In this document: piece by piece, positions 39,705 to 63,353 of the stretch
Layout of the letters: each line of letters starts with the position of its first letter
Numbering within the stretch: position 1 is the first letter of the stretch
Source: an uncultured virus (IMG/VR IMGVR_UViG_3300002219_000864)
Lineage: Duplodnaviria > Heunggongvirae > Uroviricota > Caudoviricetes
DNA: 64,000 bases
Direction: 5' to 3' (one strand)
Virus record (IMG/VR): IMGVR_UViG_3300002219_000864
Coordinates: 1-64,000 of that record
Program-made: the position numbers and the translations under genes
The notes under the pieces: model-generated
Databases searched by the model: none
Told to the model about the DNA's origin: nothing
The model's input: only the letters and a program-made list of their open reading frames with translations

Positions 39705-42566
39705 ATGTATAGTAATGTCCTTGCCCCCGGTGCCCGGGTTCTGATCCGGGATGCAGAATGGCTCGTCCGGAAGGTGGATCGCACCGATACGGGCCGACAG
39801 GCTATCTCTGTCATCGGTCTTTCCCAGATCGTCAAAGATCGGGAGGCCATTTTTCTGGAAGAGATCGATCAGATCGAGCTTCTCAATCCTGCCGACACGG
39901 ACCTCGTCGCCGATACCTCCAGCTTCTACCGGGATTCCATCCTTTTCATGGAAAGTCTCCTGCGTCAAACCCCGCCAACGGATGAGAATCTCTACATCGG
40001 CTATCAGGGCGCTATGGACGTAGTGCCCTATCAGCTCGATCCTGCCATACAGGCCCTGCAGCAACCTCGGCAGCGCATCCTGATGGCCGACGCTGTCGGT
40101 CTCGGCAAGACCATCGAGGCGGGCATTCTTCTGTCAGAACTCATTCGCCGGGGCAAGGGCAAACGCATTCTAGTTCTGACGGTAAAAAGCATGCTCACAC
40201 AGTTTCAGAAGGAACTCTGGAGCCGCTTTACTATCCCGCTGACGCGCCTAGATTCCGTGGGCATTCAGCGGGTTCGCTCCTGCATCCCCACGAATCACAA
40301 TCCCTTCTATTATTTTGACCGGGCCATCATCTCCATCGACACCCTCAAACAAGACGCCGAATATCGGACGTATCTGGAGAAATGCTACTGGGATATCATC
40401 GTCATTGACGAGGCCCATAATGTCGCCGCCCGTGGAACAGACTCCGCCTCCCTTTCCATGCGTTACCGTCTGGCCAACCTCCTCAAACACCGCTCAGATA
40501 CCCTGATTATGCTCTCCGCTACACCACATGATGGCAAACCAAGGGCCTTCGCTAGCCTGATGAACATGCTTAATCCAACGGCCATTGCTAATCAGGAAGA
40601 ATATGGCCCCGAAGATATCAAGGGCCTCTTCATTCGCCGCTTCAAAAAGGATATCAAGGATCAGGTAGCAAAATCATTCATGGAGAGGAAGATTTCCGTG
40701 GCCAAGTGCCAGGCTTCACCGGAAGAAGAAACCGCCTTCGAAGTTTTTACTCGGATGAATTTTATCCGTCTGGACCAGCGGCGCACGGCTGGTAAGCTCT
40801 TCAAGACCACCCTGGAAAAGTCACTTTTTTCCAGTCCTGCGGCCTGCCTGCAGACGATTCAACACCGGATCGACCGGCTTCAAAAAGAAGAGAGCGAAGA
40901 GCCAACAAAAGACATACAATCCCTCGAAGAACTGGCCAACACCCTCCAGCAAATCACTTCTAACAATTTCAGCAAGCACCAGAAACTCCTATCCGTCATC
41001 CAGGATCCGCTTTACGGTTTTGGCTGGACGGGCAAAGATACTCAGGATCGCCTGGTCATCTTTACTGAACGGATCGAGACACTGATATTTCTGAACGAAC
41101 ATTTACCGAAAGATCTAGGACTCAAAGAAGACCAAATCACCATCCTTCACGGCGGTCTGCCCGATGTGGACCAGACGAAGATCGTGGAAGACTTTGGTCG
41201 TGAAGAGGCACCCGTCCGCCTGCTGTTGGCCTCCGATGTGGCTTCCGAGGGGATCAACCTTCATTTTCTCTGTCACAAGATGATCCACTTCGATATTCCC
41301 TGGTCCTTCATGTGTTTCCAGCAGCGTAACGGCCGGATTGACCGCTACGGGCAGGAGCGCGAGCCCCGGATCGTATATCTGATGACGGAAAGCGTCAGCG
41401 AAAAAATCAAGGGAGACAACCGGATACTGGAATTGCTGATCACGAAAGACGAACAGGCCGTGAAGAACATCGGCGACCCATCGGCCTTGATGGGCGTGTA
41501 TGATATGGAGGAAGAGGAAAACATCACCGCTGCTGCCATTGAAGGTAGCGCAGACGTCGATGATTTCGAAAAGCTGCTTGCGAAAGCGCCCAAAGATCCC
41601 TTGGGACTCCTCATGGGCGACGAAGCCATTCCCATGGGTGAAGACACAGCCAAGGCCGAGCGACGCATGCCCTCCCTCTTTTCAAGCGATTATGCATTTT
41701 TCCGGGAAGCTATCGCGTATCTCAAGGGGTCTCAGCCCCTCCAGGCGGAATTCGACGACGACGCCCGGACGGTCAACTTCGCCGTCCCTCTGGAGATGAA
41801 ACGGGAACTGGAACATAGGTTTCGCTTTCTCCCCCGGGAGATCTGGCCGGAAAGCGGCGAGTTCACCCTTTCCGGCGACCGTGACCTGATTATGGCGGAG
41901 ATCAGTAGAACCCGCAAAGAGGATGACACCTGGCCAAAGCTCCAGCTTCTCTGGGATCTCCACCCCCTGATGCGGTGGCTGACAGATAAACTCCTCGCCA
42001 TCTTTGGCCGTCAGCAGGCGTCAGTCCTGACCCTTTCCGGTAAATTAAAGACAGGGGAAACCATTTTCATCCTCTACGGGATCATCCCCAACCGGAAAAG
42101 CCAGCCCCTGATTGCCTCCTGGATGGGGGTGCGTTTTCTGGCCGGGCAATTCGACGGGATAATAGACTTTCAGGATATCCTAGCGCAGACAGGACTGGAC
42201 CGTAACAAAATACCGAATCAGAACAAACCATTTGACAAAGAAACCCTGAAAAGGATGCTTTCCGTCGCCATTGCCAAAAGTAAAGAACGGATGCATGAAC
42301 ACCGTCAAGCTTCTGAAGCGGCCATCAATGTGAAACTGAATGCACAACTCAAGGAACTGGACCGTCTGAAGCAGAAGCAATACTGCCAATTGGAATTTGA
42401 CTTTGGTGATGCAGCGCCAGCTTCCCGCATACTTGACAAGAAACAACAAAAACAACGGGAAATAGACCGTATCTTCGACGAATACTGGAGCTGGATCGAA
42501 AACTCCCTGCTCACGGAAGACATCCCCTATATCCGGGTAGTCGCCGTCCTGAAGGGAGACGACTAA
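39705..42566 (+). CDS. SNF2-family helicase (DrmD-like) of a DISARM-related defence operon
   Basis: ADAVGLGKT, DEAH, LSATPHDG, SEGINL, QRNGRIDRYGQ; 953 aa; coupled to the MTase (TAATG). Confidence 0.9.
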   Translation: MYSNVLAPGARVLIRDAEWLVRKVDRTDTGRQAISVIGLSQIVKDREAIFLEEIDQIELLNPADTDLVADTSSFYRDSILFMESLLRQTPPTDENLYIGYQGAMDVVPYQLDPAIQALQQPRQRILMADAVGLGKTIEAGILLSELIRRGKGKRILVLTVKSMLTQFQKELWSRFTIPLTRLDSVGIQRVRSCIPTNHNPFYYFDRAIISIDTLKQDAEYRTYLEKCYWDIIVIDEAHNVAARGTDSASLSMRYRLANLLKHRSDTLIMLSATPHDGKPRAFASLMNMLNPTAIANQEEYGPEDIKGLFIRRFKKDIKDQVAKSFMERKISVAKCQASPEEETAFEVFTRMNFIRLDQRRTAGKLFKTTLEKSLFSSPAACLQTIQHRIDRLQKEESEEPTKDIQSLEELANTLQQITSNNFSKHQKLLSVIQDPLYGFGWTGKDTQDRLVIFTERIETLIFLNEHLPKDLGLKEDQITILHGGLPDVDQTKIVEDFGREEAPVRLLLASDVASEGINLHFLCHKMIHFDIPWSFMCFQQRNGRIDRYGQEREPRIVYLMTESVSEKIKGDNRILELLITKDEQAVKNIGDPSALMGVYDMEEEENITAAAIEGSADVDDFEKLLAKAPKDPLGLLMGDEAIPMGEDTAKAERRMPSLFSSDYAFFREAIAYLKGSQPLQAEFDDDARTVNFAVPLEMKRELEHRFRFLPREIWPESGEFTLSGDRDLIMAEISRTRKEDDTWPKLQLLWDLHPLMRWLTDKLLAIFGRQQASVLTLSGKLKTGETIFILYGIIPNRKSQPLIASWMGVRFLAGQFDGIIDFQDILAQTGLDRNKIPNQNKPFDKETLKRMLSVAIAKSKERMHEHRQASEAAINVKLNAQLKELDRLKQKQYCQLEFDFGDAAPASRILDKKQQKQREIDRIFDEYWSWIENSLLTEDIPYIRVVAVLKGDD

Positions 42567-45500
42567 TGTCGCTTGATCTGACCGGCATCAGCAACGAAAA
42601 CGAATTCTATACCCATCACTACCTGACTGCCATTCTGGAAAACGATCTGAATGGCCTCTTCGGCCAGTGGGAGGAACAGGAAGCACAATCAGGCATTAAG
42701 CCTCCATACGAACTCCTAGCCCGCCTGCACAGGGATTATTTTGCCTTGCGCAACCGGATGGAACGTCTCCGCAAACCGGAAGAAATCCTGGCAGCTCAGC
42801 GGGAATTTCTCCCTGAACTTCTCACCACCCTAGGTTATGATTTCGCTCCTGATCTAAAGGAACTCGATTCCGGGGCCGTGATTCCCATCATCGTTGATGT
42901 TCGTAAGAAAAACGGGGCGCCGGACCTCTGGATTATGGAGACAATCAGCCCGGTTACGGAAAATACAGATCCCCTCGAAAGCTCATTTCTGTCAGCCCAG
43001 TATGGAACCATTGAGGCAGACAGCATGTTTATTGATATTTCACTGACGGAGATCATCACGAAACTGATCTTTACCCTGGCAGAGCCACCCCGCTGGATTA
43101 TCCTCCTGAGTTTATCCCACATAATCCTTCTGGATCGGAGCAAATGGAACGAGCGGCGCTTCCTACGCTTCGACCTGGCGGAAATTCTCAGTCGCCGCGT
43201 ACCGGCCACCCTGCGAGCCATGTCAGCCCTCCTGCACCGCGAGAGTATATGTCCGGAATACGGAATAAGCCTCTTAGACACCCTGGATGAGAGTTCCCAC
43301 AAGCACGCCTTCGCCGTTTCAGAGGATCTGAAATACTCAGCCAGGGAGGCTGTGGAGATCCTGGGAAACGAGGCCCTCTACTATATCCGCAATGTCCGCA
43401 AAGAGGGCATTTATGGCAAGGACATGGCAGAGCAGCTCACCCGTGAATGTCTCCGCTATCTCTATCGGCTCCTATTCCTCTTCTATATCGAGGCCCGTCC
43501 TGAGTTAGGTTATGCCCCCATGAACAGCGAGGAATACCGCACTGGCTATAGTCTGGAAGACCTTAGAAACCTGGAATTGCAGCCCTTGACGGAAGAACCC
43601 TCACAGAACGGTTTTTTTATCCACGACTCCCTCCAGATGCTTTTTCGTCTCATCTTCGAGGGGTTCAATTATGAGCAAAAACCGAGTGCCCTTGCTTTCG
43701 AGGAACAGCACCCAGTCTTTCGCCTCTTTCCTTTGAACAGCCACCTCTTCGACCTTGCCCGGACGGCACTGCTCAATGGCGTGAAATTTCGGAATGTCGT
43801 CCTCCAGAAAGTCATCGATCTTCTCTCCCTCTCCCGCGGTGGAAGCGGCAACAAACGACGCGGCCGGATCAGCTACGCCCAGCTTGGCATCAACCAGCTT
43901 GGGGCTGTCTATGAGGGACTCCTCTCCTACACCGGCTTTTTTGCCGAAACGGACCTATATGAAGTCAAAAAGGCAGGGACAGATGTCAACGAACTGGAAC
44001 CCGCCTTTTTTGTCGGTGCCGAGGACTTCCAGCAATATGAGGAATCCGAGAGGGTGTACAATAACAACGGCACCTTGAAAATCTACTCCCGTGGAACTTT
44101 TATCTACCGTCTGGCCGGTCGGAACCGTGAAAAGACGGCGTCTTACTATACTCCAGAGGTTCTAACCCGCTGCCTTATCAAATACGCACTGAAGGAGCTT
44201 CTGAAAGACAAACAAGCCGAGGATATTTTGAAACTGACTGTTTGTGAGCTTGCCATGGGAAGCGCTGCCTTCCTCAACGAGGCCATCAACCAGTTGGCCG
44301 AGGCCTATCTGGACAGAAAGCAAAAAGAAACGGGTAAAACCATCGCCCATGATGCATACGGAAAGGAAAAGCAGAAGGTGAAGGCTTTCATTGCCGACAA
44401 CAATGTTTTTGGCGTGGACTTAAACCCGGTGGCGGTGGAACTGGCAGAGGTCTCTCTTTGGCTCAATGCCATGTACGTGCAGGATGACGGTGCTCCGCCT
44501 GTCATTCCCTGGTTCGGGAACCAGCTTGTCTGCGGCAACTCCCTCGTCGGCGCGAGGCGCCAGGTCTTCGACGCCGAACTCCTCGCAGAAAACCGCAAGG
44601 GCAAAGAGACTTGGCTGGATGTCGTCCCTGAACGGGTCCCAGTTGGACAACCTCGACAGCCAAAAACGGTTTATCATTTCCTTCTTCCCGACGAAGGCAT
44701 GGCCAAATACACGGATAAGGTTGTTCGGGGAATGGCAAAAAAAGAAACAGAGAAGATGAAGCAATGGCGAAAAGATTTCATCAGGCCATTTAATAATGGA
44801 GAGATCGACACCTTACTCAGACTCTCCAATGCTGTGGACAATCTCTGGAAGCGGCACACGGCCCAATCAGCCAGGATCCGTTTTCAGACCCGTTCCGCAT
44901 ACCAATTTTTCGGCTATGACGATACAAATGTCTACAAACAGCCCCTGACAACCAAAGAAAAAGACGAACTTTACAACCGGGAACTCCTGTCGCAAAACGC
45001 TCCTAATTCCAGCCCCTTTCGGCGGCTCAAACTTGTCATGGACTACTGGTGCGCCCTGTGGTTCTGGCCTATCCAGGAGGCGGACATGCTCCCTTCCAGG
45101 GACGAATTTTTCTTGGATCTAAGCCTGATTCTTGAGGGGACAGTCTATGAAGCATTTCCGGTTGCGGGCGAACAGATGTCTCTGATCCCCGATAATCGCC
45201 CCAGGCAGCAGGAGCTGGATTTCACAAATGAATTCGGTCATGTGAATGTGGACGCCCTTTGCGACAGTATCGAGCGGTTGTCCGTCGTCCGTAACCTGGT
45301 AGCCAAGCACCACTTTCATCACTGGGAACTGGTCTTCGCCGACATCTTCGCCGACCGTGGCGGTTTTGATCTCAATGTCGGTAATCCACCGTGGATCAAG
45401 ATTGAATGGAACGAAGGTGGTCTTTTAGGCGATTACGATCCATTGTTCGTCATCCGGAATATGTCGGCTTCTCAAATGGCCGTCATAAGGGAGGAAACGA

Positions 45501-47275
45501 TTGCCAAACGGAGGATCCGCGATGAATATTTCGGCGAATATGTGTCCTTTGAAGGGACCCAGAGCTTCCTGAACGCCTATCAGAATTACCCGATCCTGAA
45601 GGGTATTCAGTCGAACCTCTATAAGTGCTTCCTTCCCCATGCATGGCATATCGGGTCAGAGCAGGGTGTATCAGGTTTTCTTCACCCGGAAGGGGTTTAC
45701 GATGACCCAAATGGGGGAAGGTTAAGGGAGGCAATCTATCCACGCCTCAAATATCATTTCCAGTTCGAGAATGAGTTTTCACTATTTGTGGGTACCAATG
45801 ATCATGGTCGCATGCGTTTTGGCCTCCATATTTACCAAAACAGTCCCAATTCTGACATCAGCTTTACTCACATAAGCAATCTTTTCAATCCGAGAACCGT
45901 TGATTCTTGTTTTAACCATGCTGGTGAAGGATTGGTTGGCGGGATCAAGAATGATGAAAATGATTGGAACACACAGGGGCATCTTCATCGTCTCATTCTT
46001 GTTGATTATTCAACCTTGGACCTTTTTTCTCGACTTTACGACGACATGGGTACTCCGGCTACCCAAGCCCAACTCCCCGTTATCCATTCCCGACAGGTTA
46101 TAGAGGTGCTTCGGAAATTAGCCGTCCATCCGAGGCGCTTAGCCGATCTTGAAGGTGAGTATTTCTCGACAGAAATGTGGCATGAAACAAACGCCGAGAA
46201 GGACGGCACAATCAAACGATCAACCCGGTTCGCAGAAAAGCCGGAAAACTGGATCCTCTCAGGACCCCATTTTTACGTGGGTAACCCATTTAATAAAACA
46301 CCACGTAGAAGCTGCACTGCAAATAGTCATTACGATCCTCTTGATTTAACAGGTCTTTCCGATGATTACCTTCCTCGGACTAATTACATCCTTGCCTGTG
46401 ATACAAAAGTATATTTGAAAAGGACTCCGAAGGTCACATGGGATGAGAATAATCCTGTTACGGAATACTATCGTCTTGTTTTTCGAGGAATGATAGGGCC
46501 AATGGCTGAACGGACCTTGATCGGTGCAATAATACCGCCGAATGCCGCGCACATCAACGGTGCACAAACGACCGCCTTCAAAGGCTCCACTAACCTGCTG
46601 AAAAGCGCTTTCATAGCAATGGCGCTGGTCAGTGACTTCTACATCAAGTCCACCGGTCGAAGCAATCTTCACTACATTTGGGAAAACCTCCCGCTTATCG
46701 ATATTTCACCCGTCGGTATCGGACGAATCCTCCAGCTCAACTGCCTCACCACCCACTACGCCGAACTTTGGGAGGAATGCTGGGACGAGTCCTTCCGGCA
46801 GGAACGCTGGACCAAGGATGATCCACGTCTGGTCAACGGCAAATTCGCCAACTTGACCCCGAAATGGCAGCGCAACTGCGCACTCAGGACGGATTACGAG
46901 CGGCGTCAGGCCTTTGTGGAAATCGACGTCCTGGCGGCGATGGCCCTGGGCCTTACCCTCGATGAGCTCTGCACGATCTACCGGATTCAGTTTCCTGTCC
47001 TGCGTCAGAACGAAAACGACACCTGGTACGACCAAAACGGACGCATCGTCTTCACGTGCAGCAAGGGCCTTCCCGGCGTAGGATTCTCCCGCCCGGAATG
47101 GAACGACATTAAGGATATGAAATCAGGGGCCGTCTCCCGGACGATTATGGACGACACCCTCCCCGGTGGCCCCCGGGAGCGCACCATCACCTACGCCGCT
47201 CCCTTCGACCGCTGCGACCGTGAAACTGACTACACCACCGCGTGGGCAGTTTTTGAGCAGAGAGGGGTCAGATAA
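42566..47275 (+). CDS. Large N6-adenine DNA methyltransferase (DrmMI/type IIG-like)
   Basis: SYYTPEVL, CELAMGSAAFL (motif I), GVDLNP, GNPPW (motif IV); 1569 aa. Confidence 0.9.
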   Translation: MSLDLTGISNENEFYTHHYLTAILENDLNGLFGQWEEQEAQSGIKPPYELLARLHRDYFALRNRMERLRKPEEILAAQREFLPELLTTLGYDFAPDLKELDSGAVIPIIVDVRKKNGAPDLWIMETISPVTENTDPLESSFLSAQYGTIEADSMFIDISLTEIITKLIFTLAEPPRWIILLSLSHIILLDRSKWNERRFLRFDLAEILSRRVPATLRAMSALLHRESICPEYGISLLDTLDESSHKHAFAVSEDLKYSAREAVEILGNEALYYIRNVRKEGIYGKDMAEQLTRECLRYLYRLLFLFYIEARPELGYAPMNSEEYRTGYSLEDLRNLELQPLTEEPSQNGFFIHDSLQMLFRLIFEGFNYEQKPSALAFEEQHPVFRLFPLNSHLFDLARTALLNGVKFRNVVLQKVIDLLSLSRGGSGNKRRGRISYAQLGINQLGAVYEGLLSYTGFFAETDLYEVKKAGTDVNELEPAFFVGAEDFQQYEESERVYNNNGTLKIYSRGTFIYRLAGRNREKTASYYTPEVLTRCLIKYALKELLKDKQAEDILKLTVCELAMGSAAFLNEAINQLAEAYLDRKQKETGKTIAHDAYGKEKQKVKAFIADNNVFGVDLNPVAVELAEVSLWLNAMYVQDDGAPPVIPWFGNQLVCGNSLVGARRQVFDAELLAENRKGKETWLDVVPERVPVGQPRQPKTVYHFLLPDEGMAKYTDKVVRGMAKKETEKMKQWRKDFIRPFNNGEIDTLLRLSNAVDNLWKRHTAQSARIRFQTRSAYQFFGYDDTNVYKQPLTTKEKDELYNRELLSQNAPNSSPFRRLKLVMDYWCALWFWPIQEADMLPSRDEFFLDLSLILEGTVYEAFPVAGEQMSLIPDNRPRQQELDFTNEFGHVNVDALCDSIERLSVVRNLVAKHHFHHWELVFADIFADRGGFDLNVGNPPWIKIEWNEGGLLGDYDPLFVIRNMSASQMAVIREETIAKRRIRDEYFGEYVSFEGTQSFLNAYQNYPILKGIQSNLYKCFLPHAWHIGSEQGVSGFLHPEGVYDDPNGGRLREAIYPRLKYHFQFENEFSLFVGTNDHGRMRFGLHIYQNSPNSDISFTHISNLFNPRTVDSCFNHAGEGLVGGIKNDENDWNTQGHLHRLILVDYSTLDLFSRLYDDMGTPATQAQLPVIHSRQVIEVLRKLAVHPRRLADLEGEYFSTEMWHETNAEKDGTIKRSTRFAEKPENWILSGPHFYVGNPFNKTPRRSCTANSHYDPLDLTGLSDDYLPRTNYILACDTKVYLKRTPKVTWDENNPVTEYYRLVFRGMIGPMAERTLIGAIIPPNAAHINGAQTTAFKGSTNLLKSAFIAMALVSDFYIKSTGRSNLHYIWENLPLIDISPVGIGRILQLNCLTTHYAELWEECWDESFRQERWTKDDPRLVNGKFANLTPKWQRNCALRTDYERRQAFVEIDVLAAMALGLTLDELCTIYRIQFPVLRQNENDTWYDQNGRIVFTCSKGLPGVGFSRPEWNDIKDMKSGAVSRTIMDDTLPGGPRERTITYAAPFDRCDRETDYTTAWAVFEQRGVR
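47181..47257 (+). repeat. Direct repeat copy 1 (3' end of the MTase gene)
   Basis: 66/77 nt identical to 52879-52955 by manual alignment; 35/36 in the core gctcccttcgaccgctgcgaccgNgaaactgactac. Confidence 0.9.
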
Positions 47276-50200
47276 TGAACCAGCGGGATTTTCAAAACGA
47301 GATTATACGGAAGACGACAGGGGAGATAAGAACCTTTCTGTCCCAGTTAGCTTATGAAACATCAGGATACAAGAGTTTGCACAATCTCACCGAGCAGGTC
47401 GAGCATCAATATCACGGACGTTTTCTGATCGAGCTTATTCAAAATGCCCATGATGCCATGAATGAACACAATGAACCCGGCGATCATGGTCGGCTGGATA
47501 TCCTCGTTGACCGTGATGAAACACCTTATGGAGCACTATATGTTGCCAATGACGGTTCGCCTTTCACAAGATCGAACTTCGAACACCTTTCACAATTGGG
47601 GCAGAGCGATAAAGATCCCGAAAAATCGATTGGCAATAAAGGTATCGGGTTCCGTAGTGTTCTGGAAATATCTAATGCACCGGAGATTTATTCGCGTAGT
47701 ACTAAAAATAGCGTGCAATTTGACGGCTACTGCTTTTATTTTAGCCCAAGCGTCACAAAAATGTTTGAAAAACCAATCCTTGACCTTATCAAAGGCGACG
47801 ACAAACCATGCTCGCCGATCGATAGTACAGTGCCGCTTATTGAATGGGGTCGTGAACAGTTAACAAACTTCCGGAATCTCTATTGCTCTAGGGACGATCA
47901 TTGGCTAACTAAGGAGCTGAAATACCTTTCCCCGTACCTTCTTCCGATTCCAATCCAGCCATCAAATAAAACAAAAGCGATCAAAGCTTTTGAAGACAAA
48001 GGCTTCGCGTCCGTTATCCGACTTCCTTTTAAAAGTGATGCCGCATGTGCCCTTGCAATGAAGATGACTGAGGCGCTCGACGAGAACACCATCCTGTTTC
48101 TTGATCGGGTCAAGTTCCTCTCTTTGAACTCCGGAATAAAACTACGACTCATTGAAAGAAAACCTCAAGCCCTGAACGATCCAAATAACGGCCACGAAAT
48201 TAAGTTGGAAGTGGTCGAAGATGGAGAAGAGGGATATACCAAGAAAAAGTACTGGCTGTGGTCGATTACACTCGGCGAGGAAAACAATCTGGAGGAAAGA
48301 GAAGAGATAAAAAAGGCCATACTTGAAGACGAACTTCCCGGCCGTTGGCCTGAATTGTCAAAGGCGACGGTCTCTATCGCCATAAGGATAGATAAAGAAG
48401 CGGAAGAGGGCCGGATTAATATCTATCTTCCTACGCAGCTGCCAACAGGATGTGCTGCTCATTTCAATGGGCCATTCTACGGGGATATGAGCCGTACGGC
48501 TATTGATTTTGAAAAACGTTTTAACAAGCTTTTATTGCGTAGAATTGGAAGCAAGGCGATCGAAATTATCTTAGAAAGCCTCGCCGGTAAAGGCGTGGAC
48601 GATGCAAGAGCAATTTTGGATATTTTATCGCCTTCACCATATGAGACACATGCGGGTAGTGAGTGGTTTAATATTGTTAAGGAAGCCTGCAAAGAAAAGA
48701 AAATCAATCTTTCTGAACAGCCAATTATGCTGACCGATGAAGGCTGGAAAGCTATCGGTTACGCAAAACTTATCCCGGGAATTCATTCACCGAATGTTCT
48801 AACTCCCGATAAAATACGTGACTGTGCCGCTTTTGATGTGGTCCATAAAGATTTGATGAGCAGACAGAGAGAAATCACATCTCTTTTTGAGGCAATTGGT
48901 ATAAGACTTTTTCCGCTTGATGAAGATCTGGCAGCAACTGTGGAAAATATCGCTGGAGAACAACTTAAAGCAGGGGAAGATGCCAATTGGAATGGGTTCT
49001 GGCATGATCTCATTAAACTTTTCAAAAACAACGCTGAGCCGCTAAAAGAAAAGAAAATTCTTTTAGGAAGTGACGGGGAACTCCATTCATGCGATCAAAG
49101 TTGCACGATCTTTTTTCCACCCAGGCAAGGTTTAGATGATGACGAGATACAGATTGAAGGAGATTCAGGCGATATTCCTCAAACCCTTAGGGCTCATATT
49201 GCATTTCTGAATGAAAAAATAGAGATTTATAATCCGAAAGATGCGAGACAACAAACAGTCATTCGTAAATTTGTGGAATTATCACTGGTGCAGCGCTATC
49301 GTGTCATGGAGATCATCAAATCTGTTTTAATCCCCAAAATCCCATCACTACCAGTGCCATTGCGTGGTGACCAAAGTAGAATTTGTCAGGATATTCTTCT
49401 ATGGGCATTAAAACTGGTAGCAGGCATGCCTGATAGAGGTAAGGGTCGAAGTGGAACATTGCAACTATTGCGACAGATCCCGGTACCTTGTTATGGCGGA
49501 TGGTATCCCATTGAACTGAGCTTATTCGGTCCAAGTTGGCAGCGTACGGCGGGAACGGATGTATTTGACTATCTGAATGGAGCGAATACTAGAGAATGTC
49601 AGGAACATTTAAAAAAGATGCTTTTACCGCCTATCGATAAGTTATGGGATGGAAAAGGTGAAATGTATCAAGATCTTTTGGAATCGGCCGGTGTAATTGA
49701 TGGACTGAGACTTGTATCAATAGAACCAAAAGACTGGGACGCGGGGACAATGGCATATAAGTCTTCGTACCAACTTCCAGATATATCGCCACCTTGCATG
49801 CCTGATGATTTATGGAAAAAATATACAGAAGTTTACTCTCCAAAGGTTCGAGACCAAATGTATTATTCAGGTTATTTTTCTTATGAGGTTCAATCATTGT
49901 CTATGGTTCCGGGCCTTGAGCGATACGCTATTTTCGATGAAAAGACTCGCATAGCATTAATGAATTCACTTTTTGCCGGTATGCATCGATGGAAAGAATC
50001 GTGGCTTACTTCTGATATCAAGAAAGTTGATGGTCTAGAACAACATATTAAGGTAGAATCGCCACTGGCATATTGTCTCAAGTCGTTGCCTTGGATTGAA
50101 ATTGAATCGGATGGGAATAAGGAATGGGCGATTCCTTCGCAACGCTGGTATATTCCAAAAAAACATTTGTTGGTAGGCAGAAGCTGGCGGTATGGCCATT

Positions 50201-52779
50201 TAAGACCATTGCCCGGCATACTGGCCGATAAAATAGACCGATGTCCCCAGTTATATGATCAGGCACTTGCTCATCTCGGCATGCCGAAATTCGATCCCGA
50301 TGCCGACGAAAGATCTGGCAATACAAGACTTTTAGACGACTTAGCTTCGGCATTAGCTTCCGATATTCCAGACCCAAATATGTTTCTTAATCATATTCGT
50401 CTCGCCTGGAGTAATTATGCAACGGTTGATAGTGATACTTTTCCGAAATACATCATCATCAGTAATGCGCAAAAACAACTTGAAGCTGTTAAACCAGATG
50501 CAGGATTACCGATCTATCTTCCTGATAGTTCCTCTTCATTTGCGAGTGAACTAAATTTGTTTTCCTTGTCGGTCATTGAAATTGAAACGATGGATGCAAA
50601 GAGATTGGCTCCAGATTTTAAACGTTCCTATGGCGATGCTGTTCGTTTGGCTTCTGAGTTGGATGTTTGGCCAATAGTGGAGGGAAAGCGTTGGGAAAAA
50701 GAACCAGGGACACAATTTGTTGAGGACAAATTTGCTTGGTTACCTTCTGTTCTATTAACTTTGTATGCATTTGTCGGCTCTTCACCCCCAGGTCTTTATG
50801 CTAAAAAAATGTCTGGTTCGGTGCAAATCATGCGCGATGCTAAAATTTGCTGGGTTGACTCTCTCAATGCTGGTTTATGGATGGGGGATGAATCCATTGC
50901 CACTCCCGCTGTGACAGCAATGTGGTTATCACAAGAAAAGGTCCTTGTCTGCGACATCGCATTCAAAGATCAAATGAGCAAATACGCTGAAGCATTGAAG
51001 ACAATTATCGACAGAGATGATCTTGAATTACCTCTTAGGCATGTTCTCGAAAAACTGGAATACTTCGATGCGCCCACACATGATAATATCTGTACTGCTC
51101 TTGAATCCCTAAAGATTAAACCAGCGCAATATGACCAAGCCCTTGATTTATGGCAAGGTGATATTGGCCAAATGATCAGAATGACAATGCCTGTTGTTGC
51201 GTTACTAAATCCTGCGATGGAGATTGGTGCAATAGCAGATATTAAGAATGAAGAGAATTTAGAAATTTATCTGCAAAAATTAGAAATTAGCAATCTGACG
51301 CCACAAAAAATCTTAAGCCTTATCCGATCCGCAGACGACTATTATACACTTGGCAATAATCTATATGAAATACTTGGCGAAACAGCTCAGTTGGACCGGT
51401 GGAACGTGGCGCTTGTCAGAGTTGGAGAAAGACAAGTGTCCAATAGTAATGCTGAAGAGGAATTTCGCAACCAGCTAAGAAGCGCAAAAGGTCTCTTACT
51501 GGCAACATTAGCACATATTATACGGCGCCATAGTGCTGGATTACCATTTGAGGAAATAACGGAGCAACTGGAAAGGATTCCGTTTCCAGCGGTCTTAGCA
51601 TTCCAATTATGGGACGTCGAATTTGAACATGCCCTGCAAAACATTGTACCCTTCTTCGAAACCCTGAACGCCCTGCCTGATGAACTATCAGCCTTGAAAG
51701 ACTCAGACACACTTGAAGACCTGAAAAGTAATCTTCTGTCTGCCGGGGTAGAAGCAAATATCAACCCTATTTTGATACACAAAAAAAACCATGAGAATTT
51801 CAAAAATGTCCTGTTTGAATTTATGAAGATTGCCGTTGCTTTTTGCCTTCGGGAAAATATCAGCCCTTTGTCTTGGGAAAAATCACCCGAAGAGTCACTT
51901 TCTAATTTTGCAGAATTTTTCAAACATAAGGCATATTTGCATTTATGTAACAATGAGGAATATTATGAATTGATTCAATATCTCCCACGTGAAGAAACCC
52001 ATATAAATTTCTGGAATCATGTGGACCATTCAACAAATCTACAGACCCTGGCTGCATCACTATCGTTATCACCCGAACAAATAGAAGGGGCTGATATAGA
52101 ACTCGAAAAATATAAAGAGTTGAAGAGAAAACAAAATAGGTTGACACCTGTCTGCGAAAAGGAATTTGACTATACCGATGAAAACCTTTCACAACTTTGG
52201 AATCACATTATTGGGCAAATTCAAGAAGAATCTCTACCTGAAATTAATTTGAAAAGCATTTCTTCATTAGATTCAATAGCAAAGAGAAAAAAGAGACAAC
52301 ATGAAGAGACAAAAAAAACAAGTAAGCCAAAAGGCAGGACAAACAAAGAAATGGAACACCTGATAGGGTTTGCAGGTGAAATACACTCTTATCGGATGTT
52401 AAATAAAACCTATGGTAATGAGGTTGTTCATCCGGGAACGTGGAAATCATCATATAGCAAAAGAGTGTTTCCGGGCAATAGTTCGGACGATGAGATAGGT
52501 TGTGACTTTATTATTAATCAAAAGAAAATTAACTACTATATAGAAGTTAAAGCGTCTATGGAGGAGAACGATTCTTTTGAACTTGGCTCAAGCGAGATCC
52601 GTAAAGCAATGGATCTTGTAAAAAAGAAAAAACATATTTTCGTGATCATGCACGTACAAAATGCACTTTCAAAGAATCCAAAATTTCGACTGCTTCCAAA
52701 TCCTTATGACCCAAAATGCCACGGGGTTTACTCTATTGAAGATGCAGGAGCTCGAATACGATATCGCCTGAAGTCATGA
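47275..52779 (+). CDS. Sacsin/No-vein-like GHKL ATPase with C-terminal DUF3883-like PD-(D/E)XK nuclease
   Basis: ELIQNAHDA, V.NDG, IGNKGIGFRSV at the N-terminus; G.AGE...GCDF...YIEVKAS at the C-terminus; visibly more AT-rich than its neighbours. Confidence 0.85.
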   Translation: MNQRDFQNEIIRKTTGEIRTFLSQLAYETSGYKSLHNLTEQVEHQYHGRFLIELIQNAHDAMNEHNEPGDHGRLDILVDRDETPYGALYVANDGSPFTRSNFEHLSQLGQSDKDPEKSIGNKGIGFRSVLEISNAPEIYSRSTKNSVQFDGYCFYFSPSVTKMFEKPILDLIKGDDKPCSPIDSTVPLIEWGREQLTNFRNLYCSRDDHWLTKELKYLSPYLLPIPIQPSNKTKAIKAFEDKGFASVIRLPFKSDAACALAMKMTEALDENTILFLDRVKFLSLNSGIKLRLIERKPQALNDPNNGHEIKLEVVEDGEEGYTKKKYWLWSITLGEENNLEEREEIKKAILEDELPGRWPELSKATVSIAIRIDKEAEEGRINIYLPTQLPTGCAAHFNGPFYGDMSRTAIDFEKRFNKLLLRRIGSKAIEIILESLAGKGVDDARAILDILSPSPYETHAGSEWFNIVKEACKEKKINLSEQPIMLTDEGWKAIGYAKLIPGIHSPNVLTPDKIRDCAAFDVVHKDLMSRQREITSLFEAIGIRLFPLDEDLAATVENIAGEQLKAGEDANWNGFWHDLIKLFKNNAEPLKEKKILLGSDGELHSCDQSCTIFFPPRQGLDDDEIQIEGDSGDIPQTLRAHIAFLNEKIEIYNPKDARQQTVIRKFVELSLVQRYRVMEIIKSVLIPKIPSLPVPLRGDQSRICQDILLWALKLVAGMPDRGKGRSGTLQLLRQIPVPCYGGWYPIELSLFGPSWQRTAGTDVFDYLNGANTRECQEHLKKMLLPPIDKLWDGKGEMYQDLLESAGVIDGLRLVSIEPKDWDAGTMAYKSSYQLPDISPPCMPDDLWKKYTEVYSPKVRDQMYYSGYFSYEVQSLSMVPGLERYAIFDEKTRIALMNSLFAGMHRWKESWLTSDIKKVDGLEQHIKVESPLAYCLKSLPWIEIESDGNKEWAIPSQRWYIPKKHLLVGRSWRYGHLRPLPGILADKIDRCPQLYDQALAHLGMPKFDPDADERSGNTRLLDDLASALASDIPDPNMFLNHIRLAWSNYATVDSDTFPKYIIISNAQKQLEAVKPDAGLPIYLPDSSSSFASELNLFSLSVIEIETMDAKRLAPDFKRSYGDAVRLASELDVWPIVEGKRWEKEPGTQFVEDKFAWLPSVLLTLYAFVGSSPPGLYAKKMSGSVQIMRDAKICWVDSLNAGLWMGDESIATPAVTAMWLSQEKVLVCDIAFKDQMSKYAEALKTIIDRDDLELPLRHVLEKLEYFDAPTHDNICTALESLKIKPAQYDQALDLWQGDIGQMIRMTMPVVALLNPAMEIGAIADIKNEENLEIYLQKLEISNLTPQKILSLIRSADDYYTLGNNLYEILGETAQLDRWNVALVRVGERQVSNSNAEEEFRNQLRSAKGLLLATLAHIIRRHSAGLPFEEITEQLERIPFPAVLAFQLWDVEFEHALQNIVPFFETLNALPDELSALKDSDTLEDLKSNLLSAGVEANINPILIHKKNHENFKNVLFEFMKIAVAFCLRENISPLSWEKSPEESLSNFAEFFKHKAYLHLCNNEEYYELIQYLPREETHINFWNHVDHSTNLQTLAASLSLSPEQIEGADIELEKYKELKRKQNRLTPVCEKEFDYTDENLSQLWNHIIGQIQEESLPEINLKSISSLDSIAKRKKRQHEETKKTSKPKGRTNKEMEHLIGFAGEIHSYRMLNKTYGNEVVHPGTWKSSYSKRVFPGNSSDDEIGCDFIINQKKINYYIEVKASMEENDSFELGSSEIRKAMDLVKKKKHIFVIMHVQNALSKNPKFRLLPNPYDPKCHGVYSIEDAGARIRYRLKS

Positions 52780-52878
52780 TGAGGACTAGATTAAAGCATT
52801 TCGAGCATTTAGGAATAAATAAAACAGCTGACTCATATATTGTCCACAGCATCACCGTGCTCGGTGAACAAAGGGGAG

Positions 52879-52955
52879 GCGCCATCGCCTACAAAGCTCC
52901 CTTCGACCGCTGCGACCGGGAAACTGACTACGCCACCGCCTGGTCAGTCTTTGAA
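52879..52955 (+). repeat. Direct repeat copy 2: orphan duplicate of the MTase C-terminus (within the 64-aa ORF 52776-52970)
   Basis: Encodes AIAYKAPFDRCDRETDYATAWSVFE versus TITYAAPFDRCDRETDYTTAWAVFE in the MTase. Confidence 0.9.
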
Positions 52956-53051
52956 AAAAAGGTATTATAATGATGTGTATTCATAATACCCTTTGTGCAA
53001 AAAAAACATGCATCGAAACGACCCGATGGTTGAATAATCTATAGGAGGGAA

Positions 53052-54119
53052 ATGATGGCACATGAACTCTATATCAGAAAAGACGGCAAGGCTGCGATGA
53101 TGTATGTAGGCGAAGTTCCCTGGCATGGCCTGGGCATAAAACTTGACAAGCCTCCCAATTCATTAGAAGCAATAAAAGCGGCAGGACTGGATTGGGAAGT
53201 CGCCAAGTATCCTTTATTTGTTCAGTTTGGGAAAGATACTCAATTCATGAAGAAGGTTGACCGATATGGTCTCATGCCTGTCGATCGGATAAACTTGCCT
53301 GATTGTCCTGTATTTGGTGTTGTCGGCCAGGATTACGGAATCGTTCAAAATCGGGATGCGTTTTCTTTTTTTGACCCTATCATCTCTGACACACTTGCCT
53401 TTTATGAAACAGCGGGTGCTTTAGGAGAGGGTGAGCGGGTATGGGTACTTGCTAGACTCCCGGGAGACGTTGTTGTTTACAAAGACGACCGGTTGATGAA
53501 ATACCTCCTGTTGGTCAATTCCCATACGGGCATGGCGTCCGTTCAGATCAAACTGACCCCGGTCCGTGTCGTCTGCAATAATACGCTGACAATGGCGCTT
53601 TCTTTCGGCGAATCCATGAGGATTCCTCACTTTCCAGATGTGAAAAAGCGGCTGGACTTCGCCAGCACCACCATAAAAAAGGTCTTTGATAATTATCGTA
53701 TTGTGGAAGAGAGCTTCAAAAAAATGGCGTCAAAACCATTTAAGGAACAAGACTACAGAAACTACCTGGATGGCGTCCTGCCCGTTCCGAAATTGAATCC
53801 CGGCGACGGTAAGCAGAAGGAGCAACGAATCGAAAGAATCGTCGGACAAAGAGAAGACTGCACCCGCATGTTCGAAATTGGCCATGAAAATGATCCTCCA
53901 GAAATAAAACATACCCTTTGGACCGCATACAACAGCATCGTTTATTTTGCCGATTACATTCTTCCGTTGTCGGATAGGATTGAAATCTCCAATTTAAATG
54001 ACTTATGGAAAAAGTATGAAAAAGAAGACCTGGAGAGGCGCATCAAAAGAATCTGGTTCGGGGATGCAGCGAATTTGAAAGTGCGAGCTTATGATACAGC
54101 AGTTGGATTTATGAATTAA
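53052..54119 (+). CDS. DUF932 / TIGR03299-like mobile-element protein
   Basis: MAHEL...PWHGLG, AGLDWEV, QN.DAF.FFD, YETAGAL, NSH.G, TPVRVVCNNTL; AGGAGG SD. Confidence 0.85.
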   Translation: MMAHELYIRKDGKAAMMYVGEVPWHGLGIKLDKPPNSLEAIKAAGLDWEVAKYPLFVQFGKDTQFMKKVDRYGLMPVDRINLPDCPVFGVVGQDYGIVQNRDAFSFFDPIISDTLAFYETAGALGEGERVWVLARLPGDVVVYKDDRLMKYLLLVNSHTGMASVQIKLTPVRVVCNNTLTMALSFGESMRIPHFPDVKKRLDFASTTIKKVFDNYRIVEESFKKMASKPFKEQDYRNYLDGVLPVPKLNPGDGKQKEQRIERIVGQREDCTRMFEIGHENDPPEIKHTLWTAYNSIVYFADYILPLSDRIEISNLNDLWKKYEKEDLERRIKRIWFGDAANLKVRAYDTAVGFMN

Positions 54120-54134
54120 ATGAAAGCAGGTTAG

Positions 54135-57100
54135 ATGATACCATCCGTCTTATCTAGTCAAGTTCAAAAGGGCGTTGAGGATTTTCTCAAGACGACCTTC
54201 CCCGTTTCTACTCCGTTTTTCCGCGGGGTGATGGACCGGTTTTTGGGGGAGGCCGGCGGTATTTTCAAGGGACCTTACATCTCAATAAAGCTTCCCTACC
54301 GAATCGCGTCCATCAGCCCGTTTTTTTTTCCGGACATTCCCCTTCCCTTTCCGCCCTACCTGCACCAAGAACAGTCATTTCGAAGGCTCTCCGGGGAGCA
54401 CCCCATCTCCACTATCATCGCCACAGGCACCGGTTCGGGAAAGACGGAATGTTTTCTCTATCCGATCCTAGATTACTGCCGACGACACCGGGGGGAACCG
54501 GGCATTAAGGCTATCATCATCTACCCCATGAATGCCTTGGCCACAGACCAGGCGAAGCGCATTGCCCGGCTTATTCATGATAACCCTAATCTCAAAAACC
54601 AGATTAAGGCGGGGCTTTACATCGGCGGTCAGCAGGGAACTCACACCATCCCGGTTATGGGCCTTGAGAATATCATCACCGACCGTGATACCCTCCGTCT
54701 TTCACCGCCCGATATCCTGCTAACTAACTACAAAATGTTGGATTACCTGCTAATCCGCCCCAGAGACTTCCCCCTGTGGAAGGAAAACGACCCAGAAACA
54801 TTGAAATATCTGGTGGTTGATGAAATCCACACCTTCGACGGCGCACAGGGGACAGACCTGGCTTGCCTGATCCGCCGTCTCAAAAGCAGATTGAAATTGG
54901 AGAAGGAGCGCCTTTGTTGTGTAGGGACCTCCGCCACCTTAGGCGAGAAGGAAACGCAAAGGATCTGTGCATATGCAGGGAAGGTTTTTGGCGAAACTTT
55001 TGACACGGATGCAGTTATCGCGGAATCCCTTGTGTCCTCAGAAGAATTCCTGTCGGACAGCCAGATTGAGCGCAGCAACGTCATTTCGCCGGACCATACG
55101 GAAGCGCTCAACCCGGAGAGCTATGAGAATGATCAGACCTATCTCAAGGCCCAGTATAAGCTTTGGTTCGGGGATGTCGTTGACACGGACGACGAGAGGT
55201 GGCCTGTTTCTTTGACAGAAATGTTTAGAAAACACGGTTTCTTCTGGAAGCTCATTCTCTCGCTTAATAACCGAATTGTCCCTCTCGATGAACTTATCCT
55301 GCTCTTTGATCGGTTCACCCCTGAGTTTGCCGATGCTCCAGAGGAATATAAGCGCTACGTCATGGACAGCATGATCGCCTTGATCTCGGCGGCCCGGGTA
55401 AAAAGGGGTAACGGCCTGGCGCCTTTCCTCAATGTCCGGCTGCATCTCTGGCTCCGGGAACTCCGACGGATTGTTGGCAATATCGAGCATCCACCTGCAC
55501 TTCATTTTTCCGATGATTTGAAAGAAGAGGATCAAAGCTGTCATCTGCCCATTATCCACTGCCGGGAGTGCGGCGCCATGGGATGGGGTGGCACAAAACG
55601 GGAGCAAGATCAGCAGATCAATCCCGATTTGCAGCATTTTTACACCACTTTCTTCCACTACAGTCCCACGATTGTTGTGCTCTTTCCCGACGTCGCACAG
55701 GTGGAGCAAGGAGGCCAGGACGAGTTCGGGTGGGTTTTTTGCGGCAATTGCCTTCATGTTGCAATGGGCAAGCACGTCAAGAACGCCTGTTCCGCATGCG
55801 GCGACAAGGATCACCTGATACCGGTCTTTATGCCAAACTTAAGACGAAAAAAGGAACACGCCGTGGTGGGAAGCCATGACTGTCCTTACTGCCAGGGTTA
55901 CAACAGCCTGACTATTCTCGGTTCACGGGCCGCAAGCCTTACCAGTGTTGTCATCAGTCAGCTTTATGCCTCAACCTTCAATAAAGACAAAAAGCTCCTG
56001 ACCTTCTCAGACTCTGTTCAGGATGCCGCCCATCGGGCCGGGTTTTTCGCTGCCCGGACATATCGCTTCAATCTGCGCGGGGCGATTCAGAAATTCCTGA
56101 ATGAACAGGCAACGGAACTGCCACTGACGGAAATCCCTGCCGCTTTTGTCCGTTTCTGGCGGGAACGCCTGGGTGAGGAGAAATTTGTCGCCACGTTCCT
56201 TCCCCCTGATATGGCATGGTTCAACGACTACGAAACACTGGTGGAGACAGGGAAATTACCGTCGGGATCAGCCCTTTTGGACGATCTGAAAAGGCGCATC
56301 GATTGGGAAATCATTAGCGAATACGGTTTCAACGGACGTATCGGCCGTACCCTGGAGAAGACGGGATCATCCGTGGCCTGCGTGGACCGTGAGAAGCTCC
56401 GGGACGCGGCGGATACGCTTTGTGAGACCCTTCGTAACGAAATAGGGATTCTGCAGGACCTCGATCAAGAGATCGTCTCAAGGTTTATGGTCGGCCTTCT
56501 GAACCAGATGAGGACAAAAGGTGCCCTTTTTCACCCGGCACTGAAGAACTACATAGAAGACTGGGGCAACACCTATTTCATCAATAAAATATTACAATGG
56601 ATGCCCAATTTTGGTAAGTTTTCTCGAACACCAGCATTTTTGACCACAAAGCGGGGGACCCGTTTTGACGTCCTTCTCAGTTCCGGTCGCTCTCTTCTAA
56701 CCTGGTACGAAGATTGGCTCTTAAAATCCCTCAGCCCGATCCATCCCCAACTCATTGAATACCGTGAACCCATTTTCAACCTGGTGATCAAGGCACTCTT
56801 GAATAGCGGGATATTGGGTGAGAGGCAGGTGAAGGGCTTCCCTGTCTGGGGGATGAACGCGGAGTATTTCCGCGTCACCAGCCGGGTAGTTCAGTTTCGG
56901 TGTCAGGTATGCAGCCACAACGTTTCGGTCGCCGCTGATGAAGAAGACCTCTGGCAGGACAATGCGTGTCAGCGTTTCTCATGCCGGGGCAGGTATTTCC
57001 GGGAAGCGCCTTCCCGCGACTATTACGGCCTCCTCTATGCCACCGGCGATGTACAAAGGATCTTCACGGCGGAACATACGGGGCTTTTGCAACGGGACAA

Positions 57101-62597: not shown

Positions 62598-62719
62598 AAC
62601 AGTGCTATGAAGCTTTTAGTGGACAACAAGTTTGATATCATATCCGATTATTGTGGAGAGAATACAAAGCAATCCATCCGACGTCTCACAGCCGCCGCTT
62701 ATTTTTGTGTTAGATGCAG

Positions 62720-63330: not shown

Positions 63331-63353
63331 ACGTAAGGTGGAGTCCATAAACT

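What the first reader, a model, noticed from the sequence alone, without database searches (positions are those of the whole stretch)
47181..52970. MTase 3'-end duplication brackets a 5.5 kb effector gene: possible cassette-exchange site in a defence operon
Seen: 25 codons from the extreme 3' end of the MTase reappear 5.7 kb downstream (66/77 nt, in frame, followed by a stop), enclosing the AT-rich GHKL-DUF3883 gene, which is translationally coupled to the MTase. Inference: a circle carrying an MTase 3' segment plus cargo integrated by single crossover. Recombination between the copies would delete the effector and regenerate an intact MTase. The conserved MTase tail may therefore act as a landing pad for swapping accessory effectors, possibly together with the specificity domain.
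Basis: partly seen in the sequence, partly recalled or inferred. Interest (0 to 1): 0.8.

Follow-up and report, generated by a model that had tools for sequence, protein, structure and literature searches.

The report
Methyltransferase tail relic in ARMADA operon
A short leftover copy of the end of a DNA-methylase gene sits behind an extra anti-phage gene inside a known phage-defence operon, marking a past recombination at a spot where such operons often hold guest defence genes.

Summary
The repeat is real: 47155-47256 recurs at 52853-52954 (81/102 nt; 66/77 over 47181-47257), in frame and followed by a stop. Shuffled sequence gives at most 45/102.

The operon is ARMADA type II (armA-armB-armC-armD), carried as cargo inside a prophage. 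A Tiamat gene (tmtA) and a DUF932 gene lie between armB and armC. The downstream copy is the last ~41 codons of a second, diverged armB allele, not a fresh copy of the resident tail. The resident tail is closer to orthologues from other species (87 and 85/102) than to the relic.

The armB-tmtA junction, with the same TAATG overlap, also occurs in a diverged activated-sludge contig that has no relic and different cargo after tmtA.

The armB-armC junction is a general cargo slot. Of 27 related loci, 18 carry 0.85-7.8 kb there, including Zorya, Gabija, AbiL, short pAgo, Zac, toxin-antitoxin pairs and Tiamat. Orphan armB tails in front of cargo genes recur in other genomes, but only where ARMADA has decayed. 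None sits behind an intact armB.

Best reading: a recombination scar between two ARMADA loci. The route (circle or linear DNA) is unresolved. The system is ordinary; the slot is moderately interesting.

The parts
39705..42566 (+). armA: SNF2/BrxHII-like helicase (953 aa)
   Evidence: Pfam SNF2-rel_dom and Helicase_C. PADLOC DrmD E 6e-102 and BrxHII E 4e-66. It precedes the methyltransferase in the related loci that extend upstream.
42566..47275 (+). armB: PglX-like N6-adenine methyltransferase (1569 aa), intact
   Evidence: Pfam Eco57I. PADLOC PDLC03614 matches over the whole length, E 4e-300. N940-P941-P942-W943 is invariant in 38 homologues. Residues ~976-1350 are mosaic.
47155..47256 (+). 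Resident copy of the repeat: armB codons ~1531-1564 (a beta-strand plus the C-terminal helix)
   Evidence: The AlphaFold model of the C-terminal 420 aa has block-mean pLDDT 92-97 over its last 60 residues.
47275..52779 (+). tmtA: Tiamat GHKL ATPase with a NOV_C (DUF3883) C-terminal domain (1834 aa); guest gene, 41.5% GC
   Evidence: PADLOC TmtA PDLC03971 E 3e-252, residues 5-1833 against model positions 12-1781 of 1782. Pfam SACS, HATPase_c_3 and NOV_C. TAATG overlap with armB.
52780..52845 (+). AT-rich 66-nt stretch (33% GC) between the tmtA stop and the start of armB-tail homology; it holds the recombination joint
   Evidence: Nucleotide homology to L071 stops at 52780.
52776..52970 (+). 64-codon ORF. 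Its last ~41 codons (52846-52970) are the relic of a second armB allele; the repeat copy is 52853-52954
   Evidence: (tail profile E 6e-13).
53052..54119 (+). DUF932 gene (355 aa), second guest gene, with a strong AGGAGG ribosome-binding site
   Evidence: Pfam DUF932 E 1.6e-47. No PADLOC match. Sequence.
54135..60449 (+). armC: YprA/DruE-like DEAD helicase with an MrfA Zn-binding (DUF1998) domain (2104 aa)
   Evidence: Pfam DEAD, Helicase_C and MZB. PADLOC DruE E 3e-109, with a ZorE2-type HNH match at residues 2000-2090.
60450..62597 (+). armD: GajB-like UvrD helicase (715 aa)
   Evidence: Pfam UvrD-helicase and UvrD_C. PADLOC GajB E 6e-36.

Best explanation
The downstream copy is a relic, most likely non-functional. 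It is the last ~41 codons of a second, diverged armB allele. It was left when two related ARMADA type II loci recombined at the cargo slot between armB and armC.

One partner supplied armA-armB-tmtA, a unit that already had its TAATG junction. The other supplied (armB tail)-DUF932-armC-armD. At least one of the two joins was illegitimate. It lies in the 66 AT-rich bases right after the tmtA stop (52780-52845), so the replaced allele's tail survived instead of being exchanged.

Shown: the repeat, its family membership, its divergence from the resident tail, the older shared armB-tmtA junction, the general cargo slot, and the recurrence of tail relics in decayed loci.

Inferred: which partner was resident, and whether the incoming DNA was linear or circular.
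For: 1. Relic against resident tail is 81/102. The resident tail is nearer to orthologues L024 (87/102) and L056 (85/102). The relic matches L056 at 77/102.
2. In the 62-nt core the relic matches its own tail at 54/62 and L056 at 53/62. In the 21 core codons I count 3 synonymous and 2 conservative changes (read). That pattern fits divergence inside working genes.
3. L071, an activated-sludge contig, has ArmB 75%, TmtA 65% and ArmC 78% identical, with the same TAATG junction. Unbroken nucleotide homology runs over window 46736-52780 and ends at the tmtA stop. After tmtA it carries ZacABC plus two genes, and it has no tail relic.
4. tmtA relatives L068 (64%) and L069 (44%) have no ArmB match in the 14.0 and 17.6 kb fetched around them, so tmtA is a guest.
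5. Slot: 9 of 27 loci have 6-93 bp between armB and armC, and 18 have 848-7,781 bp. The cargo is toxin-antitoxin pairs and whole defence systems. The armC-armD junction is tight, 36-377 bp in the loci that show both genes.
6. Relics of the armB tail, twice together with the armC head (aa 1-46 and 1-52), flank cargo genes in decayed loci.
7. No other 35-112 aa protein among 5.8 billion shares words with the ORF.
8. The tail is a strand plus a helix packed in a confident domain model. A 64-aa fragment is therefore unlikely to fold alone.
Against: - The relic's 5' third (ITVLGEQRGGAIAY) departs from DDTLPGGPxERTIxY at residues that are at least 90% conserved in my sample. Its 3' two-thirds are pristine. 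A uniformly drifting pseudogene would not show that contrast. Either the source allele was unusual there, as in L038 and L061 which also lack PGGP, or the two parts have different histories.
- The frame is open, with an ATG overlapping the tmtA stop, so expression cannot be excluded.
- No donor or recipient allele that carries the relic's exact tail was found.
- The sliding identity of ArmC shows no breakpoint that would date or place a second crossover.
- Only one such configuration exists in my sample.
Confidence: 0.7

Rival explanations
1. A circle carrying an armB 3' segment plus tmtA, cut out of an armB-tmtA locus such as L071, integrated by one homologous crossover inside the resident armB tail. 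This duplicated the ~125-nt segment as two reciprocal hybrids.
For: The end product is what such an event predicts: direct, in-frame copies bracketing the cargo. Donor-type loci with armB-tmtA do exist (L071). A 23-nt identical run lies in the copies. By recall, not read here, that is about the minimal length for RecA-dependent exchange.
Against: The homology available would be at most 125 nt at 79-87% identity, a poor substrate. It also needs an extra step to form the circle. None of the other loci with an intact armB shows a duplicated tail, so this is not the common route. The contigs show no circle or deletion junction, although contigs cannot show rare forms. The final sequence cannot separate this route from linear one-sided recombination.
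Confidence: 0.15
2. The 64-codon ORF is a working small protein. It would be translationally coupled to tmtA, and its ArmB-like C-terminal strand and helix would mimic or compete with the ArmB tail, for example to tune ARMADA or link it to Tiamat.
For: The frame is open with an ATG in an ATGA overlap with the tmtA stop. The C-terminal 22 residues keep every family-conserved residue while the N-terminal part is free to vary. A second relic (G228) has an ATG behind an AGGAGG site.
Against: No homologous small ORF exists in 5.8 billion proteins. L071, with the same armB-tmtA pair, lacks it. There is no clear Shine-Dalgarno sequence in front of the ATG. The tail is an integral part of a folded domain. 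Other relics carry stops and broken motifs.
Confidence: 0.07
3. In-situ duplication of the resident armB tail during insertion of tmtA in this lineage, followed by neutral drift of the downstream copy.
For: Among all tails compared, the relic's best nucleotide match is the resident tail: 81/102, against 77 for the next.
Against: The resident tail is closer to orthologues from other species than to the relic. The armB-tmtA junction is shared with the diverged L071, which has no relic. The divergence is concentrated in the 5' third, and in the core it is largely synonymous or conservative (3 synonymous, 2 conservative changes). That is not the pattern of drift.
Confidence: 0.05
4. Assembly chimera joining two ARMADA loci of the metagenome.
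For: The source metagenome holds at least one other ArmB tail, on a different contig (record 5).
Against: One Logan unitig of 9,920 nt covers 46800-53300 with no differences and even depth. The ORF stands on two contigs. X1 is probably the source sample, so this support is not fully independent.
Confidence: 0.03

Closest known systems
ARMADA type II (armABCD), Bell et al., bioRxiv 10.1101/2025.09.15.676423 (passages read); EHEC OI-172 study, mBio PMC13463889 (passages read)
   Same: The same four genes in the same order: a BrxHII-like SNF2 helicase, a PglX-like methyltransferase with NPPW, a YprA-like DEAD/DUF1998 helicase and a GajB-like UvrD helicase. The system is carried on a mobile element. 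armB is its most variable gene.
   Different: Here two guest genes (tmtA, DUF932) and an armB tail relic lie between armB and armC. The preprint speaks of a 'strict gene order'. In the passages I searched, neither paper mentions genes between armB and armC. Their supplements were not seen.
Tiamat (TmtA), a single-gene anti-phage system. The name comes from PADLOC models PDLC03964-03972. The 2022 paper that named it is recalled, not read.
   Same: A full-length match to the TmtA model: GHKL ATPase at the N-terminus and NOV_C/DUF3883 at the C-terminus.
   Different: It does not stand alone. It is translationally coupled behind armB inside another system's operon. The same pairing occurs in L071, and a distant TmtA sits in the same slot in L059.
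Auxiliary effectors embedded in core BREX and BREX-related loci (NAR 2026, PMC12839542; passages read)
   Same: Guest defence genes sit inside the operon of a methyltransferase-based defence system.
   Different: The host system is different (ARMADA II), the slot is defined (armB-armC), and here there is a visible recombination scar.
Homology-facilitated illegitimate recombination, and locus switching between conserved flanking genes such as capsule or O-antigen loci (recalled from general knowledge, no paper read)
   Same: Foreign DNA enters through homology on one or both sides. A one-sided event leaves a partial duplicate of the anchor.
   Different: The flanks here are the ends of two defence genes. 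Identical runs of 20 nt or more in the armB tail occur in only 2-5% of locus pairs, so exchange should work only between close relatives.

Membership tests
ARMADA type II | ArmA: BrxHII/RapA-like Swi2/Snf2 helicase as the first gene | tested here: met
   Pfam SNF2-rel_dom plus Helicase_C; PADLOC DrmD and BrxHII.
ARMADA type II | ArmB: PglX-like adenine methyltransferase with an NPPW motif | tested here: met
   Pfam Eco57I. N940 P941 P942 W943 are invariant in the 38-sequence alignment. The C-terminal model weakly resembles the CamA, M.BseCI, BrxX and MmeI DNA-recognition parts (E >= 1e-3).
ARMADA type II | ArmC: YprA-like DEAD/DEAH helicase with DUF1998 | tested here: met
   Pfam DEAD, Helicase_C and MZB. 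PADLOC DruE.
ARMADA type II | [quoted passage not shown] | tested here: inconclusive
   The UvrD and GajB parts are met, from residue ~250. The N-terminal ~250 residues gave no Pfam match, and a RelE-like fold was not tested.
ARMADA type II | Strict order armA-armB-armC-armD | tested here: met
   The order is kept. It is interrupted by 6.9 kb between armB and armC, as in 18 of 27 related loci.
Tiamat (TmtA) | A single large protein with an N-terminal GHKL ATPase and a C-terminal DUF3883/NOV_C domain | tested here: met
   (PDLC03971, E 3e-252, full length).
Tiamat (TmtA) | Protects against phage on its own | not testable with these tools
   Needs expression and plaque assays.
Site-specific cassette-exchange system (integron-like) | A recombinase gene at the locus | tested here: not met
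   No integrase or recombinase family among the operon's products.
Site-specific cassette-exchange system (integron-like) | A repeated site at each cassette boundary across loci | tested here: not met
   A second tail occurs in 0 of 44 other loci and not in L071. No genome had two hits among the 30 tail-bearing genomes found in three searches totalling 1,141 genomes.
Gene relic (pseudogene fragment) | Only a terminal piece of the parent gene, with no catalytic part and no conserved homologous small ORF | tested here: met
   Covers ArmB positions ~1528-1569 only. It is unique among 35-112 aa proteins.

The most novel reading that the evidence does not exclude
The conserved last ~40-110 codons of armB and the first ~50 codons of armC act as homology arms of a recombination-based cassette slot. 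On this reading, defence cargo travels between ARMADA loci, and sometimes out of them, tagged with these arms. The orphan 'tail-cargo-(head)' units in genomes without ARMADA would be such cassettes rather than debris. The window would show a cassette caught after a one-armed integration.
Probability: 0.15. Interest if true: 0.7.

Novelty: new variant of a known kind. Interest (0 to 1): 0.4.

Why it matters
ARMADA type II was described in 2025 as a four-gene system with a strict gene order. This window and its relatives show that the armB-armC junction is a frequent docking place for other defence systems and toxin-antitoxin pairs. The relic gives one concrete footprint of how such composite operons are rebuilt by recombination between related loci.

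This bears on how defence islands diversify and on how to annotate and test ARMADA loci. Guest genes such as Tiamat are co-transcribed and could act together with the host system.

The relic itself is an ordinary gene fragment.

Tried and rejected
- Viral-contig scans with the ArmB C-terminus and with TmtA found no relatives.
- A megablast of 42566-54119 against plasmids gave only a ~90-nt conserved methyltransferase patch in 11 enterobacterial plasmids.
- TmtA was not found in the genomes of L024, L056, L003, L022 or L059 at E <= 1e-10.
- Runs: no RNA holder is listed. X2, from another study, holds only two short contigs identical to parts of tmtA and covers neither junction. X3 and X4 gave nothing. 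No joint was seen, but all the data are contigs, which cannot show rare deletion or circle forms.
- The promoter and terminator scan of 52400-54300 gave no more sites than shuffles do.
- Synonymous-codon identity in the tail is higher than elsewhere (0.52 against 0.37, p = 0.01). The tail columns are mostly two-fold degenerate residues, so I draw nothing from it.
- No solved structure matches the ArmB C-terminus by sequence.
- The sliding identity of ArmC showed no breakpoint.
- The shared start of several short relics near profile position 31-34 looked like a recombination hot spot. I reject that reading, because divergent full-length ArmB proteins (G237, G220) also align only from there. It reflects where conservation begins.
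- No tRNA gene lies in the window.
- Earlier-findings look-ups by place and by eight words returned nothing.
Full report
**Observation.** The repeat is there as described. The repeat finder reports 47155-47256 and 52853-52954, 102 nt, 79% identical, 5,698 nt apart. The longest identical run is 23 nt (47198-47220). Twenty shuffles of the intervening DNA never gave more than 45/102, against 81 observed. The downstream copy is in frame in a 64-codon ORF (52776-52970). Its ATG overlaps the stop of the preceding gene, and it ends in TAA. It is the only second match to the methyltransferase C-terminus in the 78,958-nt record (E 1.1e-11). It also matches the end of the PADLOC family model (positions 1532-1575 of 1584). 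A Logan unitig of 9,920 nt from run X1 spans 46800-53300 without a difference. The ORF is on record on two contigs, one of 303,628 nt. X1 is probably the source sample, so this rules out a gross misassembly but is not independent confirmation.

**What the locus is.** The genes on the + strand are:
- an SNF2 helicase (39705-42566);
- a 1,569-aa Eco57I/PglX-like methyltransferase (42566-47275);
- a 1,834-aa GHKL plus NOV_C protein (47275-52779);
- the 64-codon ORF;
- a DUF932 gene (53052-54119);
- a 2,104-aa DEAD/DUF1998 helicase (54135-60449);
- a 715-aa UvrD helicase (60450-62597).

Apart from the GHKL protein, the 64-codon ORF and the DUF932 gene, this is the four-gene ARMADA type II system, armABCD. 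It was named and tested in E. coli in a 2025 preprint and an mBio paper. I read passages of both. Earlier notes of this scan reached the same name on other DNA. The GHKL protein is a full-length TmtA of the single-gene Tiamat system (PADLOC PDLC03971, E 3e-252).

The whole block lies on the opposite strand inside a prophage. On one side are packaging and head genes: a P22-like portal, a capsid protein and a GH108 lysin. On the other side are replication genes: SSB and a primase-helicase. IMG/VR classes the record as a provirus.

**The slot.** A scan of one genome per species returned 62 loci with this methyltransferase. In 27 of them both the end of armB and the start of armC are present. Nine have 6-93 bp between the two genes, and 18 have 848-7,781 bp. 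The inserts hold:
- toxin-antitoxin pairs (ParE, PIN, HepT/MNT, Gp49);
- AbiL, a Septu PtuA, Gabija GajAB, LeoA/BC dynamins and a short pAgo pair;
- ApeA/PDC-S58, GmrSD-type nucleases, Zorya I and Zorya II;
- in L059, a distant TmtA.

By contrast, armC-armD is tight, at 36-377 bp in the loci that show both genes. armA-armB is mostly tight, with some inserts of 0.2-2.6 kb and one of 8.3 kb.

So variable cargo at this point is the rule. An earlier scan note (e1-1951447) already spoke of a cargo slot in ARMADA II. I tested that here independently. In the ARMADA preprint the terms 'between armB', 'intervening' and 'Tiamat' gave nothing, and the passages with 'inserted' or 'insertion' concern protein domains or whole islands. 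The mBio paper has no 'embedded', 'intergenic' or 'inserted'. I did not see the supplements of either paper. Guest effectors inside BREX loci are in print.

**What the relic is.** It is not a fresh copy of the resident tail.
- Relic against resident tail is 81/102. The resident tail matches the orthologous tails of L024 and L056 better (87 and 85/102). The relic matches L056 at 77/102.
- In the 62-nt core (…APFDRCDRETDY.TAW..FE) the relic matches its own tail at 54/62 and L056 at 53/62.
- The core differences are three synonymous and two conservative codon changes, the pattern of two working alleles.
- The 40 nt before the core are only 27/40 identical. They encode ITVLGEQRGGAIAY where nearly all family members have DDTLPGGPxERTIxY.
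- None of the 8 longer proteins found with the relic as query, nor the 3 closest ArmB relatives I printed beside them, carries that left part.
- A few divergent members also lack PGGP (L038, L061). I therefore cannot say whether this part has decayed or came from an unsampled subfamily. This contrast remains unexplained.

**The pairing armB-tmtA is older than the relic.**
- The one metagenome relative of this TmtA, L071 from an activated-sludge contig, has ArmB 75%, TmtA 65% and ArmC 78% identical. It has the same one-base TAATG overlap. Nucleotide homology to window 46736-52780 is unbroken and stops at the tmtA stop.
- Behind tmtA it carries ZacABC and two more genes, and it has no tail relic.
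- Two other TmtA relatives (64% and 44%) have no ArmB match in the 14.0 and 17.6 kb fetched around them.
- tmtA is 41.5% GC here and 42.1% in L071, against about 51% for armB in both.

So tmtA is a guest that has travelled with armB for some time. The relic marks the right-hand border of that unit in this lineage only.

**How common are second tails?** A profile built from 103 family tails finds a second tail only in the window (E 6e-13). The other 44 loci with a tail have none (L048's second hit is a frameshift within one tail). The tail profile was run over three genome samples of 401, 339 and 401 (1,141 in all, a few genomes in two samples). It hit 30 genomes, each once. Of these:
- 13 have long frames;
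- 5 have frames of 311-875 aa, of which I examined two. G237 is cut by the contig end. G220 keeps only the C-terminal 430 aa, then cargo, then armC;
- 12 have frames of 235 aa or less.

I examined all 12:
- G553 lies at a contig end;
- G791 is an internal deletion;
- G050 and G856 are collapsed loci with scraps of armA, armB and armC;
- G347 and G578 keep 88 and 111 codons;
- G228, G699, G638, G823, G799 and G739 keep only about 24-37 codons, several with stops or broken motifs.

G228 and G699 share the sequence after the relic, so they are one old event.

Where downstream DNA is available, the relic is followed by co-oriented cargo-type genes: an AAA_21 pair, HigB, AbiEi/AbiEii, a DUF4143 ATPase and a DUF4258 protein. 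Twice an ArmC head relic follows (aa 1-46 in G050, 1-52 in G553). In G799 and G739 the neighbours on both sides are housekeeping genes.

They lie in loci where ARMADA is gone, and none lies behind an intact armB.

**Mechanism.** The simplest account is recombination between two related ARMADA loci at the slot. One contributed armA-armB-tmtA. The other contributed (armB tail)-DUF932-armC-armD. An illegitimate join in the 66 AT-rich bases after the tmtA stop preserved the tail of the replaced allele.

Linear DNA anchored by the long armA-armB homology (or by armC-armD) would do this. The final sequence does not separate the two. The circle needs a crossover in at most 125 nt of 79-87% identity with one 23-nt identical run.

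The short tails next to retained cargo in other genomes are what stepwise deletion would leave next to genes under selection. They could also be cassettes carrying homology arms. The last ~135 codons of armB are the best-conserved DNA of its C-terminal 420 codons (63-70% pairwise identity, against 42-60% for most of the rest). Even so, identical runs of 20 nt or more occur in only 2-5% of the 406 locus pairs. Arm-mediated exchange could therefore work only between close relatives.

**Is the ORF functional?** Probably not.
- It is unique among short proteins of a 5.8-billion-sequence collection.
- It is absent from L071.
- It has no clear ribosome-binding site.
- It corresponds to a beta-strand plus the terminal helix of a confidently modelled domain (overall mean pLDDT 88.1; block means 92-97 over the last 60 residues). 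That domain weakly resembles DNA-recognition parts of gamma-class adenine methyltransferases.

An open frame and the intact C-terminal motif keep a small probability alive.

**Verdict.** The system is known (ARMADA II with Tiamat). The relic is an ordinary recombination scar. The documented cargo slot between armB and armC is the part worth keeping.

Noticed in passing
window 1-39060 and record 66900-78958 (L086): The ~24-kb ARMADA/Tiamat block lies on the opposite strand in the middle of a prophage. On one side are packaging and head genes (P22-like portal 35158-37287, capsid 30025-31104, SU10 adaptor, GH108 lysin). On the other are replication genes (SSB, primase-helicase, Gp3-like, DUF5131). 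The phage genes have ~58% GC and the island ~50%.
   Followed up: partly
window 1004-16525 (- strand): A giant 5,173-codon ORF lies in the prophage's structural region. Its N-terminal 1,000 residues gave no Pfam match.
   Followed up: no
window ~45490-46615 (ArmB residues ~976-1350): This is a mosaic segment of armB. It is 45-65% identical to L071 and L024 but 73-84% to P0003, while the flanks are 70-93% to all of them. GC dips to 46-47% there. It fits the swappable DNA-recognition module noted earlier in this scan for ArmB.
   Followed up: partly
L059:15056-20042: A second, distant TmtA (1,553 aa; PADLOC PDLC03966/03972) occupies the same armB-armC slot in an Endozoicomonas MAG. A transposase HTH gene follows it. 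This is an independent arrival of Tiamat in ARMADA.
   Followed up: partly
L081:9391-11280 (G050): A collapsed ARMADA locus: ArmA aa 5-106 is fused in one ORF to ArmB aa 1457-1566. Small cargo ORFs follow, then ArmC aa 1-46. It is wedged between two other large helicase/methyltransferase systems.
   Followed up: partly
L083:70-260 (G228): A MITE-like inverted repeat (arms around 80-106 and 229-255) lies just upstream of a 39-codon armB tail relic that has its own ATG and an AGGAGG site. The same relic and downstream sequence occur in G699 (L094).
   Followed up: no
window 62714-63998 and L086:1355-2173: Behind armD lie a 187-aa ORF with no family and a DUF5677 gene. They may be further cargo of the island.
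   Followed up: no
L010:4862-9438: armA is split by a ~1.7-kb insert in a Desulfatiglandales genome (ArmA aa 4-333 and 311-951 lie on separate stretches).
   Followed up: no
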